IMG/VR virus record: IMGVR_UViG_3300021141_000001
Reading direction: 5' to 3' (one strand)
Source: a virus
Length of the DNA stretch: 64,000 nt
The position numbers were made by a program, and so were the translations under genes. The first letter of the stretch is position 1. Every line of letters starts with the position of its first letter. This document shows positions 13,470 to 63,776 of the stretch, one piece after another. Below the pieces are notes generated by a model. The model saw nothing but the letters and a program-made list of their open reading frames with translations. It was not told where the DNA came from and searched no databases.

Positions 13470-13751
13470 ATGGAACAAATGAAAACAGTTTGTAGAAATC
13501 CTTGGTGTAAAGGACATTTCTATTATACAGAGTCAGATATGGTAGAAGTAAAAAGTGATATCAGAACATCTAAAATAAATGATGTTTTAAGTGAAGTTCA
13601 AAAAACTCCACCAAGTCAATGTCCAAAGTGTAGAAGCTTTGATAGTGAACTAAGTGGTGGTGTTGAGTGGAAAGATAAAGAATATGAAGGTAGTAGATTT
13701 GATGGCATGCCTCATCAACTTAAATATAAAGTAACAAATTATAAATTATAA
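13470..13751 (+). CDS. Zinc-ribbon protein
   Basis: CRNPWC...CPKC; internal IRTSKINDVL motif. Confidence 0.65.
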   Translation: MEQMKTVCRNPWCKGHFYYTESDMVEVKSDIRTSKINDVLSEVQKTPPSQCPKCRSFDSELSGGVEWKDKEYEGSRFDGMPHQLKYKVTNYKL

Positions 13752-21615: not shown

Positions 21616-22578
21616 TTATAATAGTATATCTCTGAATTTACCAACAATGGTTAGACCTAGAACTATAGGATCTGTATTGGTTTCTAATTTAGATGAATAA
21701 TCTGATATGATAAAATTACATTCAAATAGTTTATCTATATTTTTACTTTCTGATATAGACCAATCAATAAATGGTTTTCCTAAAAGTCTAATCATTACAT
21801 CAATCTTTTCAGCACCAAAGTTAGTCATTAAGAAGTGATAGATTTTCTCATAGTCTAATGATTTATCATAAATACAAGAGTATAAATCTAATTTTACTTT
21901 ATTAGATACATTGGATGAATTTTCACCTAAACTACCAGTTTCTAAATAGTTTTGAACTTCAACCATTATAGACCTAAAGTCTGGAAACTTTTTAGTAATA
22001 ATAGAAGCCAAATCTTCTTTAGGAATTTCTTTACCTTCTTTTGGTAGAATTACATTATTGATTCTTTTATAAACTTCTTGTTTAAGATACTTTTCTTCTT
22101 CAAGACTTTGACAATCAAAATTAATTTGAGGAATTCTAGACTTAATACCATCAGAAATTTTATTTAAGTGATTGGTTGTAATAATGAATCTAACATTCTT
22201 ATTATATTTTTCAATAAATGCTTTGAAGGCATCTTGAAATTGAGCCGATACTCTTTCAAATTCATCTAAAAAGATGTATTTAATATCAGAATCTGTCTCC
22301 ATCATTGGAGTAAATTTACAGAAATCTTCAATCTCACTTCTTAACACATCAATAGATGTATATAAAGACGAGTTTAATTCAAGATACGGCTTATCCTTTG
22401 TGTATTTACCAATAAGGATTCTAGCCAAACTGGTTTTTCCGGTACCAAAGTGACCGTAAAATATAAAGTTTTGGTTAACACCATTTTCAAAATGTTTTTT
22501 AATTCTAGGTAAAAGAATAACATCATCCATAGTTTTTGGACGCCACTTTTCCCATAAGAGTAATGATTTAACAGACAT
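21616..22578 (-). CDS. gp44: Sliding-clamp loader AAA+ subunit (gp44-like)
   Basis: LWEKWRPKT, GHFGTGKTS, FLDEFE, SRIP, FPDFR. Confidence 0.92.
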   Translation of the reverse strand: MSVKSLLLWEKWRPKTMDDVILLPRIKKHFENGVNQNFIFYGHFGTGKTSLARILIGKYTKDKPYLELNSSLYTSIDVLRSEIEDFCKFTPMMETDSDIKYIFLDEFERVSAQFQDAFKAFIEKYNKNVRFIITTNHLNKISDGIKSRIPQINFDCQSLEEEKYLKQEVYKRINNVILPKEGKEIPKEDLASIITKKFPDFRSIMVEVQNYLETGSLGENSSNVSNKVKLDLYSCIYDKSLDYEKIYHFLMTNFGAEKIDVMIRLLGKPFIDWSISESKNIDKLFECNFIISDYSSKLETNTDPIVLGLTIVGKFRDILL

Positions 22579-25194: not shown

Positions 25195-25560
25195 ATGTAC
25201 CTAAACAACAAAGACTTATACATTGAAGTAATAGTATCAAAAGCACAAGGCAAACTAACTAGAAACGCAGAGAAAATGTTAGAACTACTTGCCAAAAAAA
25301 CAATCAAAAAAATGAGATATTGGTCTAATGATGATAAATTAGACTGTTACCAATCAGGACTATTAGATATGTTCCAAAACTGGTATAATTTTAATGAAGA
25401 TAAATCTGTTAATGCCTTCGCATACTTTACAGAGGTCTTCAAAAGAGGAATTGCCAAAGGTTATAATGAACTTTACAAGAAAAAAGGCGATAACGAACAC
25501 TTAATCAAATTAATTTCAATTGAAGGTTCAAACGATGGACAAGGACTCCACTCACTTTAA
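25195..25560 (+). CDS. gp55: Late-transcription sigma factor (gp55-like)
   Basis: YLNNKDL...NFNEDKSVNAFAYFTEV matches the gp55 family signature. Confidence 0.85.
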   Translation: MYLNNKDLYIEVIVSKAQGKLTRNAEKMLELLAKKTIKKMRYWSNDDKLDCYQSGLLDMFQNWYNFNEDKSVNAFAYFTEVFKRGIAKGYNELYKKKGDNEHLIKLISIEGSNDGQGLHSL

Positions 25561-25696
25561 TCTAAAAACATTTGATATAGTTATGACACCAGCATTTAGT
25601 ACTAGTAGCATACCTATAACTATATTTCCTTCAAGACAGAAAAGACGAAAGGAAAAAATTCAAAACATCTTTAAAATAAAAAATCCACTCAATTGA
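25535..25696 (+). CDS. Unannotated 53-aa ORF containing RRKEKIQNIF
   Basis: ATG 25535 (or 25583) to TGA 25696; carries the recurrent motif. Confidence 0.4.
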   Translation: MDKDSTHFNLKTFDIVMTPAFSTSSIPITIFPSRQKRRKEKIQNIFKIKNPLN

Positions 25697-31163: not shown

Positions 31164-31613
31164 TTATGCTGTCATTTTCGGATAAATAAAGTAGAAGGAT
31201 TTAACTTGATTATCTACTATGTTTTGTTTGAGTTCTAGTTCAACTTCTGATTCAATTAAGTCTCTAATAATTTTCCCCCATTCAGTGGTCATTGTTTTAA
31301 TTGTTACTTCTAATTCTAAAACATTGTTACCTTTAAGTATGAATTTCATAAACTTTATTGCTGATGATGCTTTTTTAAGAACATCGTAGTCATAAGCATC
31401 ATCAACTATAACATTTACATACATAACACCGTGAGCGTGACCAGATATATCTAAAGTAAACTCAATCTTTTTATCTTCTAAAACAGAGTTTAATTTAATC
31501 TCTCTTTTATATTGGGACCAATTATTAAAATTAGATAATAATTTCTCGTATTGTTCTAAAGTATTATTATCTAATTCAATATTAAAAGACTTTGTTACAC
31601 TCCACCCTTCCAT
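31164..31613 (-). CDS. Hypothetical protein
   Basis: Contains KREIKLNSVL; downstream of rnr. Confidence 0.6.
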   Translation of the reverse strand: MEGWSVTKSFNIELDNNTLEQYEKLLSNFNNWSQYKREIKLNSVLEDKKIEFTLDISGHAHGVMYVNVIVDDAYDYDVLKKASSAIKFMKFILKGNNVLELEVTIKTMTTEWGKIIRDLIESEVELELKQNIVDNQVKSFYFIYPKMTA

Positions 31614-36279: not shown

Positions 36280-37983
36280 ATGTCACACATTAGAATAGAC
36301 AAATCAAAAGCAGTTAAGAAATGGGCTCCAGTTTTGGAAAACATGGGTGTAACTGAAGATAGAGTAGAATGGATGTCAGAAATGGCTGAGTATCACTCAA
36401 TCAATGAAAATGCGTATGTAAACGCATCAAACGTAGCAGGTATGGGAGCTGTATTGAATCCAGTTGTTGGTTCATTAGCAGGTAATACATTAGCTACTTA
36501 CGCAAACGGTGGTGGTGTTGCTGGTTCTGGAGACGTAGGTCAAAACTTACTTCCAGTAGCTATGAAAATTGCTGCTCAAACAATCGGTTTAGACTTAGTA
36601 GCTGTTAAACCAACTCCAGGTCCAAAAATCGATTTATTATACATCGATTTCCAATACGATGATGTTAATAACTTAACAGATGGTTATGAAAAGCCACAAG
36701 TTTTCAAATTATATGCTAGTAACATTACTGACATCACTGCTCAAATCAGACTTGACGTTGCTGGTGCTGGTCCTTTAACTGCTTTACAAGAAACAACTGG
36801 TGGATTACAAGGTGGTAGATTATTCTACGGTATCACTGCTTCATCAGCATTTGTAAGTAACACTTTACCAGCATCTAAAACAAATATAGTTGAATTCTTA
36901 GGTTTCTCTCGTATCGATGGTTACCCAATGTTTAGAGTATTCAGACAAGCAAATACATCAGGTAACATTTCTGTTCCTCATACATTTGTTGCTGCTGACA
37001 ACACATTTGCTGCTTCAGGTAGTATGCTTTCTCAAATTTTAGGTTTAGCTGGTATCGTTCCTAACTCAGGAACAAAAGAAGTTCAATTAATCTCTGCTTT
37101 AGAAGATCATATCCCAGGATTTACATCAAACTGGACTGCTGCTTCAGGTGGTGCTTTAGGTAACTATCCAATGGATCGTGCTTCTGATGATAACAGTTAT
37201 GCTGGTGTTATCGGACCAAAAATCTCTTCTAAAACTGTAGCAGTTGGTACTATCGAAGTATCTTCAGCTCTTAGAAGAACTGAAATCGAAGATATCAAAG
37301 CTAACACAGGTATGGATATCGTTCAAAAAATGGAGTCTATCCTTGTTAACGAATTGTCTCAAACAATTTCTAAACAAATCGTTGCTAAAATCTTCGAAAT
37401 GGGTGCTCTTAATGCTGTTAACGCTCCTGCTGCGCCAGCTGGTTCTGCTAACTCTGGTGGTACTATCTTCGACTTGAACACTGCTTATGCTGCTACTACT
37501 TATGTTGGTGGTGAAACTACTCACGCTGTTCAACGTAAGTTAATCACTAAGATTGCTCACGCTTCTAACTACATTGCTACTGAAGGTCGTGTAGGTCCTG
37601 CTCAATACCTTATCACAAACGGAGGTCTTGCTGCTGCTTTACAAGATATCGCTGGTTACACAATTAACCCAGTTAAATCTAAATTAAACGGACAAGGTCA
37701 ATTATACCCTGTAGGTTCAATCGGAGACATCTCTATCTATGTAGATCCATATATGAGATATAACGATAACAGAATCGTGTTAGGTCGTAAGAACAACCCT
37801 GACCAACCAGGTATCATTTTCGTACCTTACTTAATGGCTCAGTCTATCTCAGTTATCTCTGAAGCTACATTCGCTCCAAGAATGTTGTTACGTTCAAGAT
37901 ACGCTGTAACTGAAGTTGGTTGGTTCCCACAAAAACAATATATGACTATTACAGTTACTGACGCTGCTCAGTTATTAAACTAA
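36280..37983 (+). CDS. gp23: Major capsid protein (gp23-like)
   Basis: KKWAPVLE, A..IG.DLV.VKP..GP, YVDPY, FVPY, F.PR....SRY; strongly biased codon usage. Confidence 0.92.
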   Translation: MSHIRIDKSKAVKKWAPVLENMGVTEDRVEWMSEMAEYHSINENAYVNASNVAGMGAVLNPVVGSLAGNTLATYANGGGVAGSGDVGQNLLPVAMKIAAQTIGLDLVAVKPTPGPKIDLLYIDFQYDDVNNLTDGYEKPQVFKLYASNITDITAQIRLDVAGAGPLTALQETTGGLQGGRLFYGITASSAFVSNTLPASKTNIVEFLGFSRIDGYPMFRVFRQANTSGNISVPHTFVAADNTFAASGSMLSQILGLAGIVPNSGTKEVQLISALEDHIPGFTSNWTAASGGALGNYPMDRASDDNSYAGVIGPKISSKTVAVGTIEVSSALRRTEIEDIKANTGMDIVQKMESILVNELSQTISKQIVAKIFEMGALNAVNAPAAPAGSANSGGTIFDLNTAYAATTYVGGETTHAVQRKLITKIAHASNYIATEGRVGPAQYLITNGGLAAALQDIAGYTINPVKSKLNGQGQLYPVGSIGDISIYVDPYMRYNDNRIVLGRKNNPDQPGIIFVPYLMAQSISVISEATFAPRMLLRSRYAVTEVGWFPQKQYMTITVTDAAQLLN

Positions 37984-42477: not shown

Positions 42478-42701
42478 TGGCAATAGCTTGTAATCCTAGT
42501 GTATTTAATATAAATAACGCTTCAAATTCAACAGCAATTAATGTTGATTCAGATGGTTGTACAGTTATTAGTAAGTTGGTTCTATTAGATGAGAAGACTG
42601 GTAATAAATGGCAAATTAAAATATTAGATGGTGAGTTGATAGCTGAGCCACTTGAATTAGAAGATAAAAGAGAATATAAACTAAATAAAATACTAAAATG
42701 A
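42477..42701 (+). CDS. Hypothetical protein ending KREYKLNKILK
   Basis: Translationally coupled ORF. Confidence 0.6.
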   Translation: MAIACNPSVFNINNASNSTAINVDSDGCTVISKLVLLDEKTGNKWQIKILDGELIAEPLELEDKREYKLNKILK

Positions 42702-43767: not shown

Positions 43768-43890
43768 TTTATAGAATTACTTTTTTGTATATATTAATTG
43801 TCAAATCTCATTTCTTTCATTTTAGAGAGCCGGTTTTTTATATATACTTATGATAAAAAACAAAAATCAAAAAGAGTGTATAATAAAGAT

Positions 43891-45231
43891 ATGAGTAAAT
43901 TAGTAACGTTAAACGGAAATAATGATCAAGAACTTCTAAGTTCTATCTTTGACAATGAAATTGTTGTATTTGAAGATATTCAAGGATCAAAAATATGGGT
44001 TAATTGGGATGGTAAAGAATTTACTATTAAACCAAAGTCAATGAGTAGTGAAAAACTTAATCTTGTTGATTTGGCTATTCAAAACTATTATAATCCAGGT
44101 ATTAAATATTTAGAATCATTGGATGTAAGAGTTAAATCATTGTTGAATAAAAAATGGTGGTTTTGTTTTGAGTACTTTCCAGATGAACAACCTGCTAATA
44201 TTGGATATGATAGAGTTCCTAAAAATCATTTAGTTTTAACTGCTATTAATAAAGGTGGTAAGTATGACTTTAGTGTTGAAGAGTTAGATGAGTATGCTAG
44301 ATTATTTGATGTTGATATGTTACCGATTGTTTTTCAAGGTAAACTAACTGAGAGAATGATTGAAGCTATTAAATACTTTATTAATACAAGTGAAGAAGAT
44401 TTAGAGTATGTATTTGGAGAAAAGTCATTTTCATTTTTCTTCTACAGAATATTAAATCCAAGTTCTACTAACTCGTTCTTAATGAAAGATGAAGATTATC
44501 AATCAAATCTTGAGAAACTTATTGTAAGAACTAAAAGTGGTGATATTTCATTTGAAATATTAAATCCTTTATACAGAAGAATAAGTGATAGTAACTCAAC
44601 AGAATTTGTTGAAATTTATACACTTATATTAGTTAACTTCTTAAACTTCTGTCAATCATTTAACTTAGATGAAATTAAATTAAAAGGTGAAAGAAGAGAT
44701 GAAGTTTATATTTATCTAATGTCTAAACTATTCAATGTTTATGTTTCTGAAGTTAAACAAGATTTATTAGACTTTGATTTTGTAGTTCCTGAATTCTTTG
44801 ATAAAGAAAAGTTCAAAATCAATACAGAATTAATTCCTAATAAATTGACCAAAGATTATATTAAAGAATCTGATAAGTTAGAATATATCTTCAAAGTTAT
44901 TCTTGGTTCATTTAACAAGAAAAGAAAGAAAGCAATTGGTGTATTTACTGATAATACAGTTATATTATTTAACACATTTGTCAATGATATTAATGTTTAT
45001 ATTGAAAAGTATCTAAATAAAGTACACGAGGTTGAATTAACAAGAGCTGGTTTGCTTGACTTTGGTGATTTCTTTGAGATTCAATATGATCAAGATGGTG
45101 AAGGTGATGTTTATCCTGATGTTTACTCTGAGTTTGAAAAAGGAACACCTGAAGAAAAGAAGAAAAAAGGTAAAGGTGGTAAAGGTTTACCCGTACCAGA
45201 AGAAGGACCGTCTAAAACTCCTACTAAGTAA
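43891..45231 (+). CDS. RNA-ligase-fold protein with degenerate active site
   Basis: EDIQGS in place of EKxDG; FEY, LPIVFQG, EKLIVR resemble Rnl2-type motifs. Confidence 0.45.
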   Translation: MSKLVTLNGNNDQELLSSIFDNEIVVFEDIQGSKIWVNWDGKEFTIKPKSMSSEKLNLVDLAIQNYYNPGIKYLESLDVRVKSLLNKKWWFCFEYFPDEQPANIGYDRVPKNHLVLTAINKGGKYDFSVEELDEYARLFDVDMLPIVFQGKLTERMIEAIKYFINTSEEDLEYVFGEKSFSFFFYRILNPSSTNSFLMKDEDYQSNLEKLIVRTKSGDISFEILNPLYRRISDSNSTEFVEIYTLILVNFLNFCQSFNLDEIKLKGERRDEVYIYLMSKLFNVYVSEVKQDLLDFDFVVPEFFDKEKFKINTELIPNKLTKDYIKESDKLEYIFKVILGSFNKKRKKAIGVFTDNTVILFNTFVNDINVYIEKYLNKVHEVELTRAGLLDFGDFFEIQYDQDGEGDVYPDVYSEFEKGTPEEKKKKGKGGKGLPVPEEGPSKTPTK

Positions 45232-45443
45232 TGAACTCAATTGATATTAATATGAGAAGTGTTCAAGTTGAAACTAAAACAAGAGCGCTTAGATCTACTT
45301 GGACTCGTGAATTGGCAACTGATTTAGATTCATATCATAATATTGATATTGAAAAGGAACTTTCTCATCTTTTGAAAGAAGAGCTTCGTAAACAACGAGC
45401 TTCTAGTAGAAAAAAATCAATCAATAAAATCTTCCAAAATTAA
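45231..45443 (+). CDS. 70-aa gp23-core fragment protein
   Basis: VETKTRALRSTWTRELATDLDSYHNIDIEKELSHLL resembles T4 gp23 IEAKSRQLKAAYSIELAQDLRAVHGMDADAELSGIL. Confidence 0.7.
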   Translation: MNSIDINMRSVQVETKTRALRSTWTRELATDLDSYHNIDIEKELSHLLKEELRKQRASSRKKSINKIFQN

Positions 45444-45474
45444 GAACATAAACTTGGAATTTCATATAATTTAT

Positions 45475-46710
45475 ATGACAGTTTCAAGTGTAATTAAGCT
45501 CAGTGATATAGAGTCCTATTCTTCAATTAAGAAGAATTTAGAGGGTAAGAAATGTAGCTTACAGTTTCTACCGGTTTCGTTAGAAACAATTTCAAAACAA
45601 AAGAATTTTATTTATAAAGGTCAAAAGTTGAAGTCAGCTTATTTGATTGATATTATTCATAATTTAATTCTAAAGTATTATTTCAAAAAAGAAAATAAAT
45701 TTCATTTAATGTCTCCTATTTTAAAGGAGAAGTATGGTTATTTATATAACTACTATATGGATTTTCTTACAGAGAATAAAATTATTATTCTTTTAGCAAA
45801 ACATCAAAAGGGTAAAAGTGCTAGAGTTTATGCCATTAATGAATATATTCTCAGAGGAACTATCATTCGATTTAATAATAGTGATAGGACTTTACTTAAA
45901 AAGTATAAAGCAAAGGTAGCTCAGATAGTAGAAGATAAATTAGAAAACTCACTCATTGATAATGATATAAAGATTAAGTTAGTCGATGATTTATTTAAGA
46001 TTCAAATTGAATTTGATAGGTCAATATTTTATTTAGACTCCTTAAAAAGTGATGATATTGATATTTATAATAGAAATAAATATTCAGTTGAGTGTATTAA
46101 TGATAAACACATATTTTATCATTTTGATAGTTATGGTCGCATGCATACTAACTTTACTATATTAAAGTCTTTTATTAGAAAGAATTGTCTATTAATTAAT
46201 GGTGAAGAAACTCATGAAATAGATATTAAAAACTCACAACCTCTTTTCCTAACTAAATTGATTCAAGATTCCGGTACTAAATGGGTTAATCAAGAAGAAT
46301 TTGAACTATTCAAAAATCTTACTATTAATGGTACTTACTATAACTATATAATGGATCACCTTAAAACAAAAGATAGAGGTATGGTTAAAGAATTAACATA
46401 TAAAGTACTATTTGGTAGAAATGGTGTTAATAGTAAAGCCGATAAGATATTTAGTAGTCTTTTTCCAACTATACATTATTTTATTAAATTGTATAAAAAA
46501 GAACACGGAGATTATAAAGTATTGGCTTATGAATTACAAAAGTCTGAAAGTAATCTTATTTTTAATAAAATTATTAGACAAATAATGACACTTTATCCAG
46601 AAATAAATTTAGTTACTGTACATGACAGTATAATTATACCAAAGTCTTATAAAGATTCGGTTTGGGCAATTTTTCAAACCAAACTTTATGAAGAATTCGG
46701 ACTTATTTAA
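45475..46710 (+). CDS. Minimal family-A polymerase-like protein
   Basis: GRMHT, EIDIKNSQP (motif A), K...Y..LFG (motif B), LQ..E, TVHDS (motif C). Confidence 0.6.
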   Translation: MTVSSVIKLSDIESYSSIKKNLEGKKCSLQFLPVSLETISKQKNFIYKGQKLKSAYLIDIIHNLILKYYFKKENKFHLMSPILKEKYGYLYNYYMDFLTENKIIILLAKHQKGKSARVYAINEYILRGTIIRFNNSDRTLLKKYKAKVAQIVEDKLENSLIDNDIKIKLVDDLFKIQIEFDRSIFYLDSLKSDDIDIYNRNKYSVECINDKHIFYHFDSYGRMHTNFTILKSFIRKNCLLINGEETHEIDIKNSQPLFLTKLIQDSGTKWVNQEEFELFKNLTINGTYYNYIMDHLKTKDRGMVKELTYKVLFGRNGVNSKADKIFSSLFPTIHYFIKLYKKEHGDYKVLAYELQKSESNLIFNKIIRQIMTLYPEINLVTVHDSIIIPKSYKDSVWAIFQTKLYEEFGLI

Positions 46711-46910: not shown

Positions 46911-47450
46911 ATGACAGGATTGGAACACAAGGATGCCTCATTTATTCTACTATCATCTACACGTTTAGATGATATGATATCTATTTTATATGCCAAAGAA
47001 TATCAAGTATTACCCATTAAAGGTTACTACAAGGGTCAATATGAAGACTCTGTAATGGCTTATGGTAAAGTAGATAATGATACTTTAAGAAAAGATGTTC
47101 TTTTTCTTTTAAATCATTTCCATGAAGAATGTGCTATTATTAAATACACTGAAGAAACTAATGCTAAAAAGATATTTAAAGATGGATCTGAGATACCTAT
47201 GGGTATTGTAATGTATAATACAGATTCTGATAATATGTCTTATTTACATAATGGTACATCATTCTCATTTGTTGAATCTAAAAGATATTGGAGACCAACT
47301 AAAAAAGAAGATTTCAGAGTTGGTATGCTAGTTGAATATTTCAATAATAATAAGTGGTTTGAAAAGCTTGTTGAGAATCCTAATGATGAATATGAAAAAC
47401 TTTATAAACTACTTATAAAGTATGATAAAGTTAGAGTTCCTTCTAAATAA
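46911..47450 (+). CDS. Hypothetical protein
   Basis: 179 aa; late promoter. Confidence 0.65.
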   Translation: MTGLEHKDASFILLSSTRLDDMISILYAKEYQVLPIKGYYKGQYEDSVMAYGKVDNDTLRKDVLFLLNHFHEECAIIKYTEETNAKKIFKDGSEIPMGIVMYNTDSDNMSYLHNGTSFSFVESKRYWRPTKKEDFRVGMLVEYFNNNKWFEKLVENPNDEYEKLYKLLIKYDKVRVPSK

Positions 47451-48222
47451 TTTCAAACCAATTTATAATCTTAGAATAATTAGGAGTTTCTTTTAAGAAA
47501 TATCTCATGTCATTTGGACAGTTAATTACATTTAATCCATTCTCAGTTTTCTGAGCATTTCTCATCATAATAATCTTATTTGATTTGATATAAGGAGAAG
47601 GTATAACATTCATACCATTTATATTTCCATCCACAACACCATCTTTTATATCAGACATCATCATTCCATTAGACATCAGAAGATATTTATAAGCATCTAA
47701 ACCAACTATAATAGTATTGGCTGGTCCTGTTCTTCCGGTTGATGATATTAGATTACTGGTCATCATTAATCTTGTTATAACTTTTCTTGATGTTGATGAC
47801 TCATTTTCATAATCTGTTAGATTAGGATCTTTTTGAATAGAAACATTCAAATTTTGAGGAATATTCATTGACTTTGATGTTAATGATTCTAATGTCATCA
47901 TAACATCATTGTAAATATCAAATAAGTCTAAATAGGTTTTACCTTGAACATTAATAGAGTTAAGTTTAGGAGTTATAGTCATCATATAACTTTCGTTATC
48001 TAATGGATTTGAAAACGGTTCTCTATTTTTGAACTCTTCAACTTTATCATCTATAATAGCATCAATCGCAAGTTCACGATTCTTTCTTTTTAATTCTCTT
48101 TGATATTCCTCATTGGATGATTCATCCCAATCCATAAAAGTCATTACACCTTGTGGCAAAGAAGGCTTTGTAGATTCTACATAGTTACAGATTTTCTCTA
48201 AATCTTTAGATGAAATTATCAT
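47443..48222 (-). CDS. Truncated major-capsid paralogue (C-terminal part)
   Basis: RKVITRLMMTSNLISSTGRTGPANTII vs MCP RKLITKIAHASNYIATEGRVGPAQYLI; GNINGMNVIPSPY vs GSIGDISIYVDPY. Confidence 0.7.
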   Translation of the reverse strand: MIISSKDLEKICNYVESTKPSLPQGVMTFMDWDESSNEEYQRELKRKNRELAIDAIIDDKVEEFKNREPFSNPLDNESYMMTITPKLNSINVQGKTYLDLFDIYNDVMMTLESLTSKSMNIPQNLNVSIQKDPNLTDYENESSTSRKVITRLMMTSNLISSTGRTGPANTIIVGLDAYKYLLMSNGMMMSDIKDGVVDGNINGMNVIPSPYIKSNKIIMMRNAQKTENGLNVINCPNDMRYFLKETPNYSKIINWFEII

Positions 48223-55916: not shown

Positions 55917-56424
55917 TTATATTACCGGAAATCCTTCAGACGTTTCTTATGCTGTTAAGAAAATAGTTGACTTCTTAGATATGGAGGGTAGAAATCCGGT
56001 CTTATTTTGTAAACCAAGAAGTTCAAACTCTACTGCTACTACACTTAAATATTTAATGGAACCTAAAATAAACTTCAATAATATTGAAGATTTTACAGAA
56101 GTATTAAATAATAAAGGTAATCTATTTAGAGTTGATTTATTAGTATTCGATTTTTGGCATTTGAGTGTTTCTTCAATAATAGAATATAAACAAGTTATTG
56201 ATAAATTAAATATTGATTATATAATATTAGCCAAAGAGTATCATTATAAATCATCTGAGGATGTTAATGATTATCATGTTAAAATTGAATCTAGAGAATT
56301 ATATCACAGTGAATACTCAATAACTGATAAAATATCTGGATGGACTTCAAACTTAGAAAATTTATCAAAATCTTACATTCGTAATAAAAAAATTGACGAT
56401 ATTTTCAATAAAAATGATGAATAA
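55894..56424 (+). CDS. Degenerate P-loop-like protein ending IRNKKIDDIF
   Basis: YITG at the N-terminus; LLVFD (Walker B-like). Confidence 0.45.
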   Translation: MIEIKRCNYITGNPSDVSYAVKKIVDFLDMEGRNPVLFCKPRSSNSTATTLKYLMEPKINFNNIEDFTEVLNNKGNLFRVDLLVFDFWHLSVSSIIEYKQVIDKLNIDYIILAKEYHYKSSEDVNDYHVKIESRELYHSEYSITDKISGWTSNLENLSKSYIRNKKIDDIFNKNDE

Positions 56425-63299: not shown

Positions 63300-63776
63300 A
63301 TGTTTGATAAAAATTTCAATATTATACATGGTGATAGAATTTCTGGTAGAACAGAGTTTCTATTTAATATTTCTAATAGTTTTAATAAAGTAGGATTAAA
63401 ACTATTTTTCTTATCATGTACAGGTGATATTGAGACTAAAGATAGATTTAATGATATCTTTGATGATTATAGAATTATAAACACATTTGATGAAGTCAAT
63501 AATTATAAAGTAATAGAAGTTGTAAAAGAACTATCTGAAAAAAGAAAGTATAATTTTCTAATTATAGATGATATTGATTACTTGCCAAAATCTTGTGTTG
63601 ATTTATTATCAGAAATAGATACTTCTAAAATTGTAACTTGTTTAAGTGACAATTATAAAAAACTACCTGAAGAATCTAATTTTTATAATATAAGTGATGT
63701 TAGTGATTTATCTAATATTGATGAAATTGTTAAAAAAATAATTAGAGACCAAAAAATAAATTCAGTATTAAAATGA
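63300..63776 (+). CDS. Degenerate P-loop NTPase-like protein ending IRDQKINSVLK
   Basis: HGDRISGRT (Walker A with K->R); LIIDD (Walker B). Confidence 0.5.
   Translation: MFDKNFNIIHGDRISGRTEFLFNISNSFNKVGLKLFFLSCTGDIETKDRFNDIFDDYRIINTFDEVNNYKVIEVVKELSEKRKYNFLIIDDIDYLPKSCVDLLSEIDTSKIVTCLSDNYKKLPEESNFYNISDVSDLSNIDEIVKKIIRDQKINSVLK

What the first reader, a model, noticed from the sequence alone, without database searches (positions are those of the whole stretch)
45231..45443. Stand-alone 70-aa fragment of a foreign-type gp23 capsid core
Seen: the peptide matches the canonical T4-family gp23 segment (..AKSRxLKAxYxxELAQDLxAxHGxDAxxELxxIL) much better than it matches this phage's own capsid protein (VGTIEVSSALRRTEIEDIKANTGMDIVQKMESIL). 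It ends in the recurrent RKKSINKIF tag. Inference: a decoy for capsid-sensing immunity, or a dominant-negative inhibitor of competing T4-like phages, rather than debris.
Basis: partly seen in the sequence, partly recalled or inferred. Interest (0 to 1): 0.75.

Follow-up and report, generated by a model that had tools for sequence, protein, structure and literature searches.

The report
Tagged capsid-fragment mini-gene of a megaphage
A conserved 70-residue gene in a giant phage joins a piece of a T4-type capsid protein to a short tail peptide that many other mini-genes of these phages also carry, so it is a working part of an undescribed set of small mimic proteins and not gene debris.

Summary
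ORF 45231..45443 (+), here q70, encodes 70 aa. Residues 2-52 match Pfam Gp23 (E 2.5e-11, 44 bits) and T4 gp23 residues 256-299. A profile of its family scores 56-59 bits on canonical gp23 proteins but only 17.7 bits on this phage's own capsid protein.

It is not debris. I collected 131 distinct homologues of 45-90 aa. They sit at the same position in most of 73 related megaphage loci. The frame stays open, and the conserved positions are the gp23 signature residues plus the tail.

The gene evolves fast: dN/dS is 0.16-0.83 against 0.04-0.13 in its neighbours. It was lost together with a small capsid-fold paralogue in at least three lineages.

The "RKKSINKIF tag" really recurs. A second copy ends ORF 25520..25696, the detached C-terminal piece of the gp55 late sigma factor. 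In a complete relative, about 16 mini-ORFs carry the tag. Their bodies include capsid, scaffold and polymerase fragments.

Best reading: a two-module mimic protein, a gp23 capsomer-edge segment plus a shared docking peptide (possibly a T4-type sliding-clamp-binding tail). Decoy and dominant-negative roles remain untested. Other first-stage notes of this scan reported the shared tag elsewhere in this genome.

The parts
45231..45443 (+). q70: the 70-aa mini-protein gene, stop codon included
   Evidence: conserved in most of 73 related loci
45234..45389 (+). gp23-like module, residues 2-53. It equals T4 gp23 ~249-299: I-domain linker 2 / E-loop return strand, the short acidic P-domain helix and the first half of the spine helix. 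It covers the head-length (ptg) sites 268, 275, 285 and 287 and the gp31-bypass site 292.
   Evidence: residue roles from PMC9546572
45396..45434 (+). C-terminal basic tag, residues 56-68 (R...RKKSINKIF). It is the most conserved part of the family (R60 91%, I64 85%, I67 80%). AlphaFold2 models it in one helix with the spine-helix half.
43798..45231 (+). Upstream 477-aa gene with no family hit. Its stop overlaps the q70 start (TAATG), which suggests translational coupling. It is directly upstream in most but not all relatives.
45454..46710 (+). Downstream 418-aa gene with no family hit. q70 lies 10-40 nt upstream of it in nearly all loci. The gene is intact where q70 is missing.
25520..25696 (+). 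Second ORF with the same tag (RRKEKIQNIF): the detached C-terminal piece of the gp55-like late sigma factor. It is a conserved family (55 clusters) and is fused in frame to the sigma core in relative P0282.
25195..25560 (+). gp55-like late sigma core, 121 aa. It covers only positions 10-105 of the 181-position profile.
   Evidence: phrog_234, E 4.3e-6
47443..48222 (-). p259: a compact HK97-fold paralogue of the phage's own capsid protein. It evolves fast and is gained and lost together with q70.
36280..37983 (+). The phage's own major capsid protein (567 aa). Its segment 315-373 is the distant counterpart of q70.

Best explanation
q70 is a functional, fast-evolving accessory mini-protein made of two modules. 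Module 1 (residues 1-53) is homologous to the edge of a canonical gp23 P domain: the strand returning from the insertion domain, the short acidic helix and the start of the spine helix. [quoted passage not shown] Module 2 (residues 56-68) is a basic amphipathic peptide. In these megaphages the same peptide ends about 16 other mini-ORFs whose bodies are fragments of core phage proteins: capsid spine helix, capsid C-terminus, scaffold repeats, polymerase motif A and the tail piece of gp55. Inferred mechanism: the tag docks the mini-protein on a common partner, and the capsid module acts as a competitive mimic for whatever normally binds this segment of a gp23-type protein. The best candidate for the partner is a sliding clamp. 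The tag sits where T4 gp55 carries its clamp-binding tail and has the same S-hydrophobic-x-x-hydrophobic-F skeleton as the tails of T4 gp43 and gp55. Shown: homology, conservation, module structure, recurrence of the tag and co-loss with p259. Inferred: docking, mimicry and the identity of both partners.
For: gp23 homology is shown. Conservation: the ORF is present and in frame in about 55 of 73 loci, and about 90 of the top 150 hits among 1.84 billion representatives are 50-75-aa full-length members. A 70-codon frame stays open by chance with p about 0.003 at this base composition. Across 131 members the conserved sites are R18, L20, R21, W24, T25, E27, L28, D31, L32, D39 and L48. Each is identical or conservative to T4 R264, L266, K267, Y270, S271, E273, L274, D277, L278, D285 and L294. 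The tag sites R56, R60, K61, I64, I67 and F68 are conserved too. AlphaFold2 gives residues 1-25 unstructured, helix 26-36 and helix 40-69 at pLDDT about 90, with pTM 0.37. That is the gp23 secondary structure without a globular core, as expected for a partner-dependent peptide. Tag recurrence: in the window. hhalign aligns the tags of the q70 and gp55C families at E 5.5e-5. The tag DNA differs by synonymous codons and the flanks are unrelated, so the constraint is on the protein. In the complete relative LR745206 the motif occurs 99 times against 6.5 expected, 80 of them within 10 residues of a C-terminus. Basic-tag mini-ORFs there match the scaffold (E 2e-17), the own capsid C-terminus (E 2e-5), the gp23 spine helix (Pfam E 4e-4 to 1.5e-3 in three genomes) and polymerase motif A. 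Clamp link: gp55 is split, with the tag on its tail piece. T4 tails read SLDFLFG, SLDFLY and TLDFLL and are interchangeable clamp-binding epitopes (PMC2988020). The megaphage PolB ends RRLSVVMDIFGG, and a gp44-like clamp loader lies at 21616..22578. Accessory, arms-race-like evolution: dN/dS 0.16-0.83, and 2.3 against the closest relative with all 10 changes in residues 6-30, versus 0.04-0.13 in neighbours. Identity plateaus near 40%.
Against: No binding was shown for either module. No gp45-type or beta-type clamp gene was found with Pfam models in three relatives' genomes, two of them complete GenBank records and one estimated 95% complete. The tag is basic, whereas T4 clamp-binding tails are acidic and hydrophobic. 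A related acidic form of the motif ends about 65 further ORFs of unknown function, far more clients than any phage clamp is known to have. The gp55 tail piece shows no profile-level homology to T4 gp55 segments 3-4, so the equivalence rests on position and length only. q70 is absent from whole sub-lineages whose neighbouring genes are intact, so it is dispensable.
Confidence: 0.45

Rival explanations
1. Immune decoy. q70 and its sister mini-ORFs display conserved motifs of core phage proteins to soak up host sensors that recognise short capsid motifs, as Lit and CapRel do. The tag recruits a common neutralising partner.
For: The bodies of the tagged mini-ORFs are the most conserved segments of capsid, scaffold and polymerase. 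Evolution is fast and alleles are patchy. Capsid-sensing defences exist, and some read short motifs (PMC13581612; PMC3014915).
Against: q70 is not the Gol segment. Whole-fold sensors such as Avs7 need the A domain, which q70 lacks. The own capsid protein is so diverged in this segment that a sensor tuned to the canonical motif would not see it. Buried catalytic motifs of a polymerase are odd sensor targets. No defence gene or host is known here.
Confidence: 0.15
2. Dominant-negative weapon against co-infecting T4-like phages. The canonical strand, acidic helix and spine-helix segment caps the edges of a competitor's gp23 capsomers and blocks or distorts shell assembly, while the diverged resident capsid protein is spared.
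For: q70 is canonical-type and not own-type. It covers the intercapsomer contact helix and the head-length mutation cluster. The closest segments among cultured phages are the capsid proteins of a Microcystis phage and of Flavobacterium T4-like phages. A precedent exists, recalled from memory and not checked here: the capsid homologue Ccm of SaPIbov5 interferes with its helper phage.
Against: Sister mini-ORFs copy the phage's own capsid C-terminus and its own scaffold. This model does not explain the shared tag. There is no evidence of co-infection.
Confidence: 0.12
3. Factor for the phage's own head. q70 works with p259, the small HK97-fold paralogue, or with the major capsid protein, for example at capsomer edges or vertices of the very large capsid.
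For: q70 and p259 are both capsid-derived, lie 2 kb apart and both evolve fast. They are lost together in at least three separate lineages although the genes between them stay. Both are decayed remnants in one contig, and p259 is merely relocated in another that keeps q70.
Against: p259 models as a complete fold that needs no extra helix. Some lineages keep q70-like ORFs without p259 at the site. The conserved q70 residues are canonical and not own-type.
Confidence: 0.15
4. Decaying remnant of a second gp23 gene with no function of its own, kept open by chance or as a spacer for translational coupling.
For: dN/dS is high in close pairs. The ORF is absent or broken in some lineages.
Against: 131 distinct intact homologues exist with signature residues conserved. 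In-frame indels are tolerated while the frame stays open. Chance openness has p about 0.003 per genome. Identity plateaus instead of decaying. The tag is under protein-level constraint.
Confidence: 0.03

Closest known systems
T4 gp23 / gp24 (Pfam Gp23, HK97-fold major capsid and vertex proteins)
   Same: Residues 2-53 are homologous to T4 gp23 249-299, with the family signature R-x-L-K/R-x-x-W/Y-T/S-x-E-L-x-x-D-L kept.
   Different: Only about 50 of roughly 450 fold residues are present: no A domain, no P-domain sheet, no N-arm. The second half of the spine helix is replaced by a basic tag. The gene is stand-alone and lies outside the head gene block.
C-terminal sliding-clamp-binding epitopes of T4 gp43, gp55 and gp33 (and RB69 gp43)
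   Same: A short peptide at the extreme C-terminus with the skeleton S/T-hydrophobic-x-x-hydrophobic-F/Y/L, carried by otherwise unrelated proteins. Here it is found on the tail piece of the gp55 homologue (PMC2988020).
   Different: The tag is basic instead of acidic. It is carried by dozens of ORFs. No clamp gene was recognised, and binding is untested.
Gol peptide of T4 gp23 (activator of the Lit protease)
   Same: A short piece of gp23 that is biologically active on its own (PMC3014915).
   Different: Gol lies in the first quarter of gp23, whereas q70 maps to residues 256-299. Gol is not a separate gene.
Capsid-protein homologues used for interference (SaPIbov5 Ccm) and plant-type microProteins (recalled from memory, not checked here)
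   Same: A protein derived from a larger assembly protein that could act by competing for its contacts.
   Different: Ccm is a full HK97-fold protein of a satellite. microProteins lack a shared docking tag. q70 is a 50-residue fragment in a phage genome and one of a tagged series.
Small inhibitor proteins of huge phages (PMC8297831)
   Same: Small conserved ORFs next to large enzymes in huge phage genomes, proposed to be inhibitors.
   Different: That work concerns partners of ATPases. It describes neither capsid fragments nor a common C-terminal tag.

Membership tests
Pfam PF07068 Gp23 (T4-type major capsid protein) | Significant match to the family profile above the gathering score | tested here: met
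   44 bits against a 24.4-bit cut-off, E 2.5e-11; 36 of 39 homologues match
Pfam PF07068 Gp23 (T4-type major capsid protein) | A complete HK97 fold (N-arm, E-loop, P domain, A domain) able to form capsomers | tested here: not met
   Only profile positions 132-182 of 376 are covered. The AlphaFold2 model is a coil plus two helices, pTM 0.37.
T4-type sliding-clamp-binding epitope | Location at the extreme C-terminus with the skeleton S/T-hydrophobic-x-x-hydrophobic-aromatic | tested here: met
   SINKIF lies 2 residues from the end. T4 tails read SLDFLF, SLDFLY and TLDFLL. In the family, I64, I67 and F68 are conserved at 85%, 80% and 63%.
T4-type sliding-clamp-binding epitope | Hydrophobic and acidic character (PMC2988020) | tested here: not met
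   The tag is strongly basic, with R56, R60 and K61 conserved.
T4-type sliding-clamp-binding epitope | Presence on the homologues of known clamp clients (gp55, gp43) | tested here: inconclusive
   The tag ends the detached gp55 tail piece. The PolB tail shares only R-x-x-x-V-x-x-I-F. The gp55 tail piece has no profile-level homology to T4 gp55.
T4-type sliding-clamp-binding epitope | A clamp encoded by the phage, and binding to it | tested here: inconclusive
   There are no hits for PF02916, PF09116 or PF00712 in relatives, but a gp44-like clamp loader is present. Binding cannot be tested with these tools.
Gol peptide / Lit trigger | Correspondence to the Gol region in the first quarter of gp23 | tested here: not met
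   q70 aligns to T4 gp23 256-299. Gol lies in the first quarter (PMC3014915).
T4 prohead core proteins gp67 / gp68 / gp22 | Sequence similarity to these small core proteins | tested here: not met
   The family profile scores -1.6, -6.7 and 1.8 bits.
Dominant-negative / microProtein-type mimic | Derived from an interaction segment of a larger assembly protein | tested here: met
   It maps onto the intercapsomer contact helix and the head-length mutation cluster of gp23.
Dominant-negative / microProtein-type mimic | Binds the parent protein or its partner and blocks assembly | not testable with these tools
   No assay is available. The one complex prediction run gave no verdict (see Tried and rejected).

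The most novel reading that the evidence does not exclude
q70 is one element of a phage-encoded system of tagged mimic peptides. In this system dozens of mini-genes each fuse a hallmark segment of an essential phage protein (capsid, scaffold, polymerase, sigma factor) to one docking peptide. A single hub therefore holds a panel of baits that intercept host sensors, competitor proteins or the phage's own assembly intermediates.
Probability: 0.3. Interest if true: 0.9.

Novelty: categorically new. Interest (0 to 1): 0.8.

Why it matters
If the two-module reading is right, these giant phages have turned fragments of their most conserved proteins into a family of small trans-acting proteins that share one address label. 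That would be a new way for a virus to regulate or protect capsid assembly, late transcription or replication. It would also give a ready-made panel of natural peptide inhibitors or baits. The capsid module covers exactly the gp23 segment that sets head length and capsomer contacts in T4. Expressing it against T4-like phages is a direct test of how that segment works in assembly. The tag, found on about 80 ORFs per genome, is a handle for finding an unknown hub protein in uncultivated megaphages.

Tried and rejected
1) Complex prediction of q70 with p259, both as alignments: no verdict (score 0.00). It is not used as evidence either way.

2) Split-fold idea, that q70 supplies a missing helix to p259: set aside. 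p259 models as a complete compact HK97 fold, and hhalign of the two families is insignificant.

3) A remembered similarity between T4 gp67/gp22 and the gp23 head-length region: not found with the family profile.

4) q70 as a gp33 analogue by sequence: no similarity.

5) The tag as the end of a mobile element or a DNA repeat: rejected. DNA similarity is limited to the coding tag with synonymous differences, and the flanks are unrelated.

6) The tag as a by-product of AT-rich codons: rejected by shuffles.

7) T4 late promoter TATAAATA near the operon: not enriched and none upstream. The sigma-70 scan is at chance, and there is no terminator between the three genes.

8) The tag as simply the second half of the spine helix, which I held at first: weakened. 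Sister ORFs carry a complete canonical spine helix, then a Gly/Pro linker, then the tag.

9) Identity of the neighbours p477 and p418: no Pfam, PHROG or PDB sequence hits.

10) Pfam on ten larger carriers of the acidic tag form: nothing.

11) Literature searches for capsid decoys, the megaphage clade and C-terminal motifs found no description of this family.

Full report
**Setting.** The window has 29% G+C. It belongs to a megaphage related to the 634-642 kb uncultured phage genomes LR745206 and LR756502, at about 71% DNA identity around the finding. The window's own assembly is not held. An 85-kb IMG/VR contig (G001) is nearly identical.

**The observation.** ORF 45231..45443 (+), here called q70, encodes 70 residues. 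Its ATG overlaps the TAA of the upstream 477-aa gene by one base.
- Residues 2-52 match Pfam Gp23 at E 2.5e-11 (44 bits, cut-off 24.4, profile 132-182 of 376) and phrog_138 'major head protein' at E 3.8e-11.
- Against solved structures it aligns to T4 gp23 residues 256-299.
- BLASTP finds no similarity to the phage's own capsid protein at 36280..37983, which is itself a Gp23 member at E 6e-28.
- A profile of 39 homologues scores 56-59 bits on canonical full-length gp23 proteins from metagenomes, 37.9 on T4 gp23, 19.2 on T4 gp24 and 17.7 on the own capsid protein.

**It is a real gene.** I used the downstream 418-aa gene to fetch 73 related loci from IMG/VR.
- A homologous short ORF lies directly upstream of that gene in about 55 of them, always in frame, despite in-frame insertions and deletions.
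- A profile search of 1.84 billion representative proteins returned 1512 hits. About 90 of the best 150 are full-length members of 50-75 aa. A distant member sits in the same gene order.
- The sources call them 'hypothetical protein', and the ESM Atlas auto-names such clusters 'Gp23 domain-containing'.
- At this base composition a 70-codon frame is open by chance with p about 0.003.
- In 131 distinct members the conserved sites are R18, L20, R21, W24, T25, E27, L28, D31, L32, D39 and L48. Each is identical or conservative to the T4 gp23 residue at n+246. The tail sites R56, R60, K61, I64, I67 and F68 are conserved as well.

**What the gp23 module corresponds to.** According to the T4 head structures (PMC9546572), the matched stretch has three elements:
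- I-domain linker 2, the strand that returns to the P domain.
- The short negatively charged P-domain helix, which makes charge contacts between capsomers near the quasi-threefold axes.
- The start of the spine helix.

The head-length mutations A268V, A275T, D285V and D287V/N lie in it, and so does the gp31-bypass site G292. The Gol peptide that triggers Lit lies in the first quarter of gp23 (PMC3014915), so q70 is not a Gol copy. AlphaFold2 with the family alignment gives an unstructured 1-25, helix 26-36 and one long helix 40-69 at pLDDT about 90, with pTM 0.37. This is the gp23 secondary structure without a core, which suggests folding on a partner.

**Evolution.**
- Against close relatives q70 has dN/dS 0.16-0.83, while the flanking genes have 0.04-0.13.
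- Against the nearest relative all ten amino-acid changes fall in residues 6-30, with almost no synonymous change (dN/dS 2.3).
- Identity drops to about 50% between genomes whose neighbours are more than 90% identical, then plateaus near 40%.
- One allele type is more alike between distant genomes than their neighbouring gene is (68% against 58%). This hints at exchange.
- q70 is missing from several lineages in which the neighbours are intact. No copy was found elsewhere on four such contigs, though these are partial (CheckV 12-68% complete).

**Link to the second capsid-derived gene.** ORF 47443..48222 (-), here p259, models with pLDDT 84 as a compact HK97 fold. Its best structural matches are T4 gp23/gp24 and HK97. 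Its profile hits the phage's own capsid protein at 46 bits.
- On a tree of the 418-aa gene, q70 and p259 are lost together in at least three separate lineages, although three genes between them stay.
- In one contig both survive only as decayed remnants. In another contig that keeps q70, p259 has merely moved.
- p259 needs no extra helix, and profile comparison of the two families is insignificant.

**The tag.** My first exact-pattern search found the tail only once in the window. Complete relatives then showed further short Gp23-like ORFs. These turned out to end in the same peptide.
- A position matrix of the tag finds exactly two strong hits in the six frames of the window: q70, and RRKEKIQNIF seven residues from the end of ORF 25520..25696.
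- That ORF is itself a conserved family. hhalign aligns the two families only at the tag, at E 5.5e-5.
- The tag DNA of six ORFs differs by synonymous codons and the flanks are unrelated. The constraint is therefore on the peptide, not on a DNA repeat.
- A looser form occurs 6 times in the window against 0.37 expected.
- In the complete genome LR745206 the motif occurs 99 times against 6.5 ± 2.7 in shuffles. Eighty occurrences lie within 10 residues of a C-terminus, where 10 are expected.
- Two forms are visible. An acidic one (R-D-x-K-I-D-x-I-L) ends about 65 ORFs of 60-250 aa with no Pfam domain. A basic one (R-K-x-K/S-I-x-K/N-I-F) ends about 16 mini-ORFs of 36-83 aa.
- The basic-tag mini-ORFs include the q70 homologue, a canonical spine-helix fragment, a fragment of the own capsid C-terminus (E 2e-5), a fragment of the scaffold repeats (E 2e-17), a piece holding polymerase motif A (DFASLYPS, E 0.004) and the gp55 tail piece.

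Other first-stage notes of this scan had proposed such tagged mini-proteins elsewhere in this genome. I reached the pattern before reading them and tested it on a related genome.

**What the tag may be.** ORF 25195..25560 is a gp55-type late sigma core that covers only profile positions 10-105 of 181. The tagged ORF overlaps its end, and the two are fused in frame in one relative of 179 aa. The combined length is close to T4 gp55.
- For a clamp-binding tail: in T4 the C-terminal tails of gp55, gp33 and gp43 (SLDFLY, TLDFLL, SLDFLFG) are interchangeable sliding-clamp-binding epitopes (PMC2988020). The q70 tail has the same spacing of serine, two hydrophobic residues and phenylalanine. The megaphage PolB ends RRLSVVMDIFGG, and a gp44-like clamp loader is in the window.
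- Against it: no clamp gene is detectable with three Pfam models. The tag is basic. The number of carriers is very large. The gp55 tail piece has no profile-level match to T4 gp55.

I rate the clamp reading at about one in three. Other docking, targeting or turnover roles for the tag remain open.

**Conclusion.** q70 is not debris. It is a conserved, dispensable, fast-evolving mini-protein that joins a canonical gp23 capsomer-edge segment to a shared docking peptide. It is one of a series built on the same plan. The most economical mechanism is molecular mimicry by the capsid module with the tag as an address. Whether the target is a host sensor, a competitor's capsid, the phage's own head proteins (with p259) or the late-transcription machinery cannot be decided here. 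The single complex prediction I ran gave no verdict.

Noticed in passing
window 25195-25696: The gp55-type late sigma factor is split. A 121-aa core (phrog_234, profile 10-105 of 181) is followed by an overlapping 53-58-aa ORF that carries the tail with the tag. One relative (P0282, 179 aa) has both in one frame.
   Followed up: partly
window 13563-13589, 31479-31505 (-), 42669-42695, 56380-56406, 63744-63770: Further copies of the looser motif R..K[IL][NDQ].[IV][LF], three of them within 5 residues of a C-terminus. In the complete relative LR745206 about 80 ORFs (median 90 aa) end in this motif, mostly in an acidic form. No carrier tested has a Pfam domain.
   Followed up: partly
window 47443-48222 (-): A 259-aa compact HK97-fold protein (pLDDT 84), a paralogue of the phage's own capsid protein. 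It evolves fast (dN/dS 0.16-0.47) and lies downstream of a glycosyltransferase. It could be a vertex or accessory shell protein.
   Followed up: partly
window 45454-46710: A 418-aa protein with polymerase-like motifs seen by eye (DIKNSQP..., TVHDS), highly conserved (dN/dS about 0.05). It has no hit in Pfam, PHROGs or PDB sequences.
   Followed up: partly
window 43798-45231: A 477-aa protein with a lysine/glycine-rich tail and a ligase-like look but no family hit. Its stop overlaps the q70 start.
   Followed up: partly
LR745206 (W01) 130634-131950 (-) and 233919-234311 (+); likewise in LR756502 and G006: Family-B DNA polymerase matches fall in two separate ORFs of about 476 and 515 aa that lie 100 kb apart, so the polymerase looks split in these phages.
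   Followed up: no
proteins P0051, P0067, P0072, P0091, P0094, P0110 (metagenomes); locus L082 238-600: Other small ORFs of 97-280 aa join the same gp23 strand and spine-helix segment to the gp23 N-terminal 'PIVRRV...DLV.VQPL' segment in permuted order. They are often flanked by FKFFRG-like repeats. One lies beside sugar-modifying genes. This is a different kind of mini-gp23.
   Followed up: no
loci L056, L057, L064: In lineages that lack q70 and p259, the full-length capsid gene lies just beyond the glycosyltransferase, within 3.5 kb of the 418-aa gene. In the window it is 10 kb away on the other strand.
   Followed up: no
locus L012 2574-3500: An insertion of about 930 nt separates the q70 homologue from the 418-aa gene in one relative. 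Elsewhere insertions fall upstream of q70.
   Followed up: no
own capsid protein residues 362-373 (window ~37363-37398): SKQIVAKIFEMG at the end of the own spine helix closely resembles SKQAIIAKIFENQ in the N-terminal propeptide of T4 gp23 (residues 28-40), and both resemble the tag. This may be chance.
   Followed up: no
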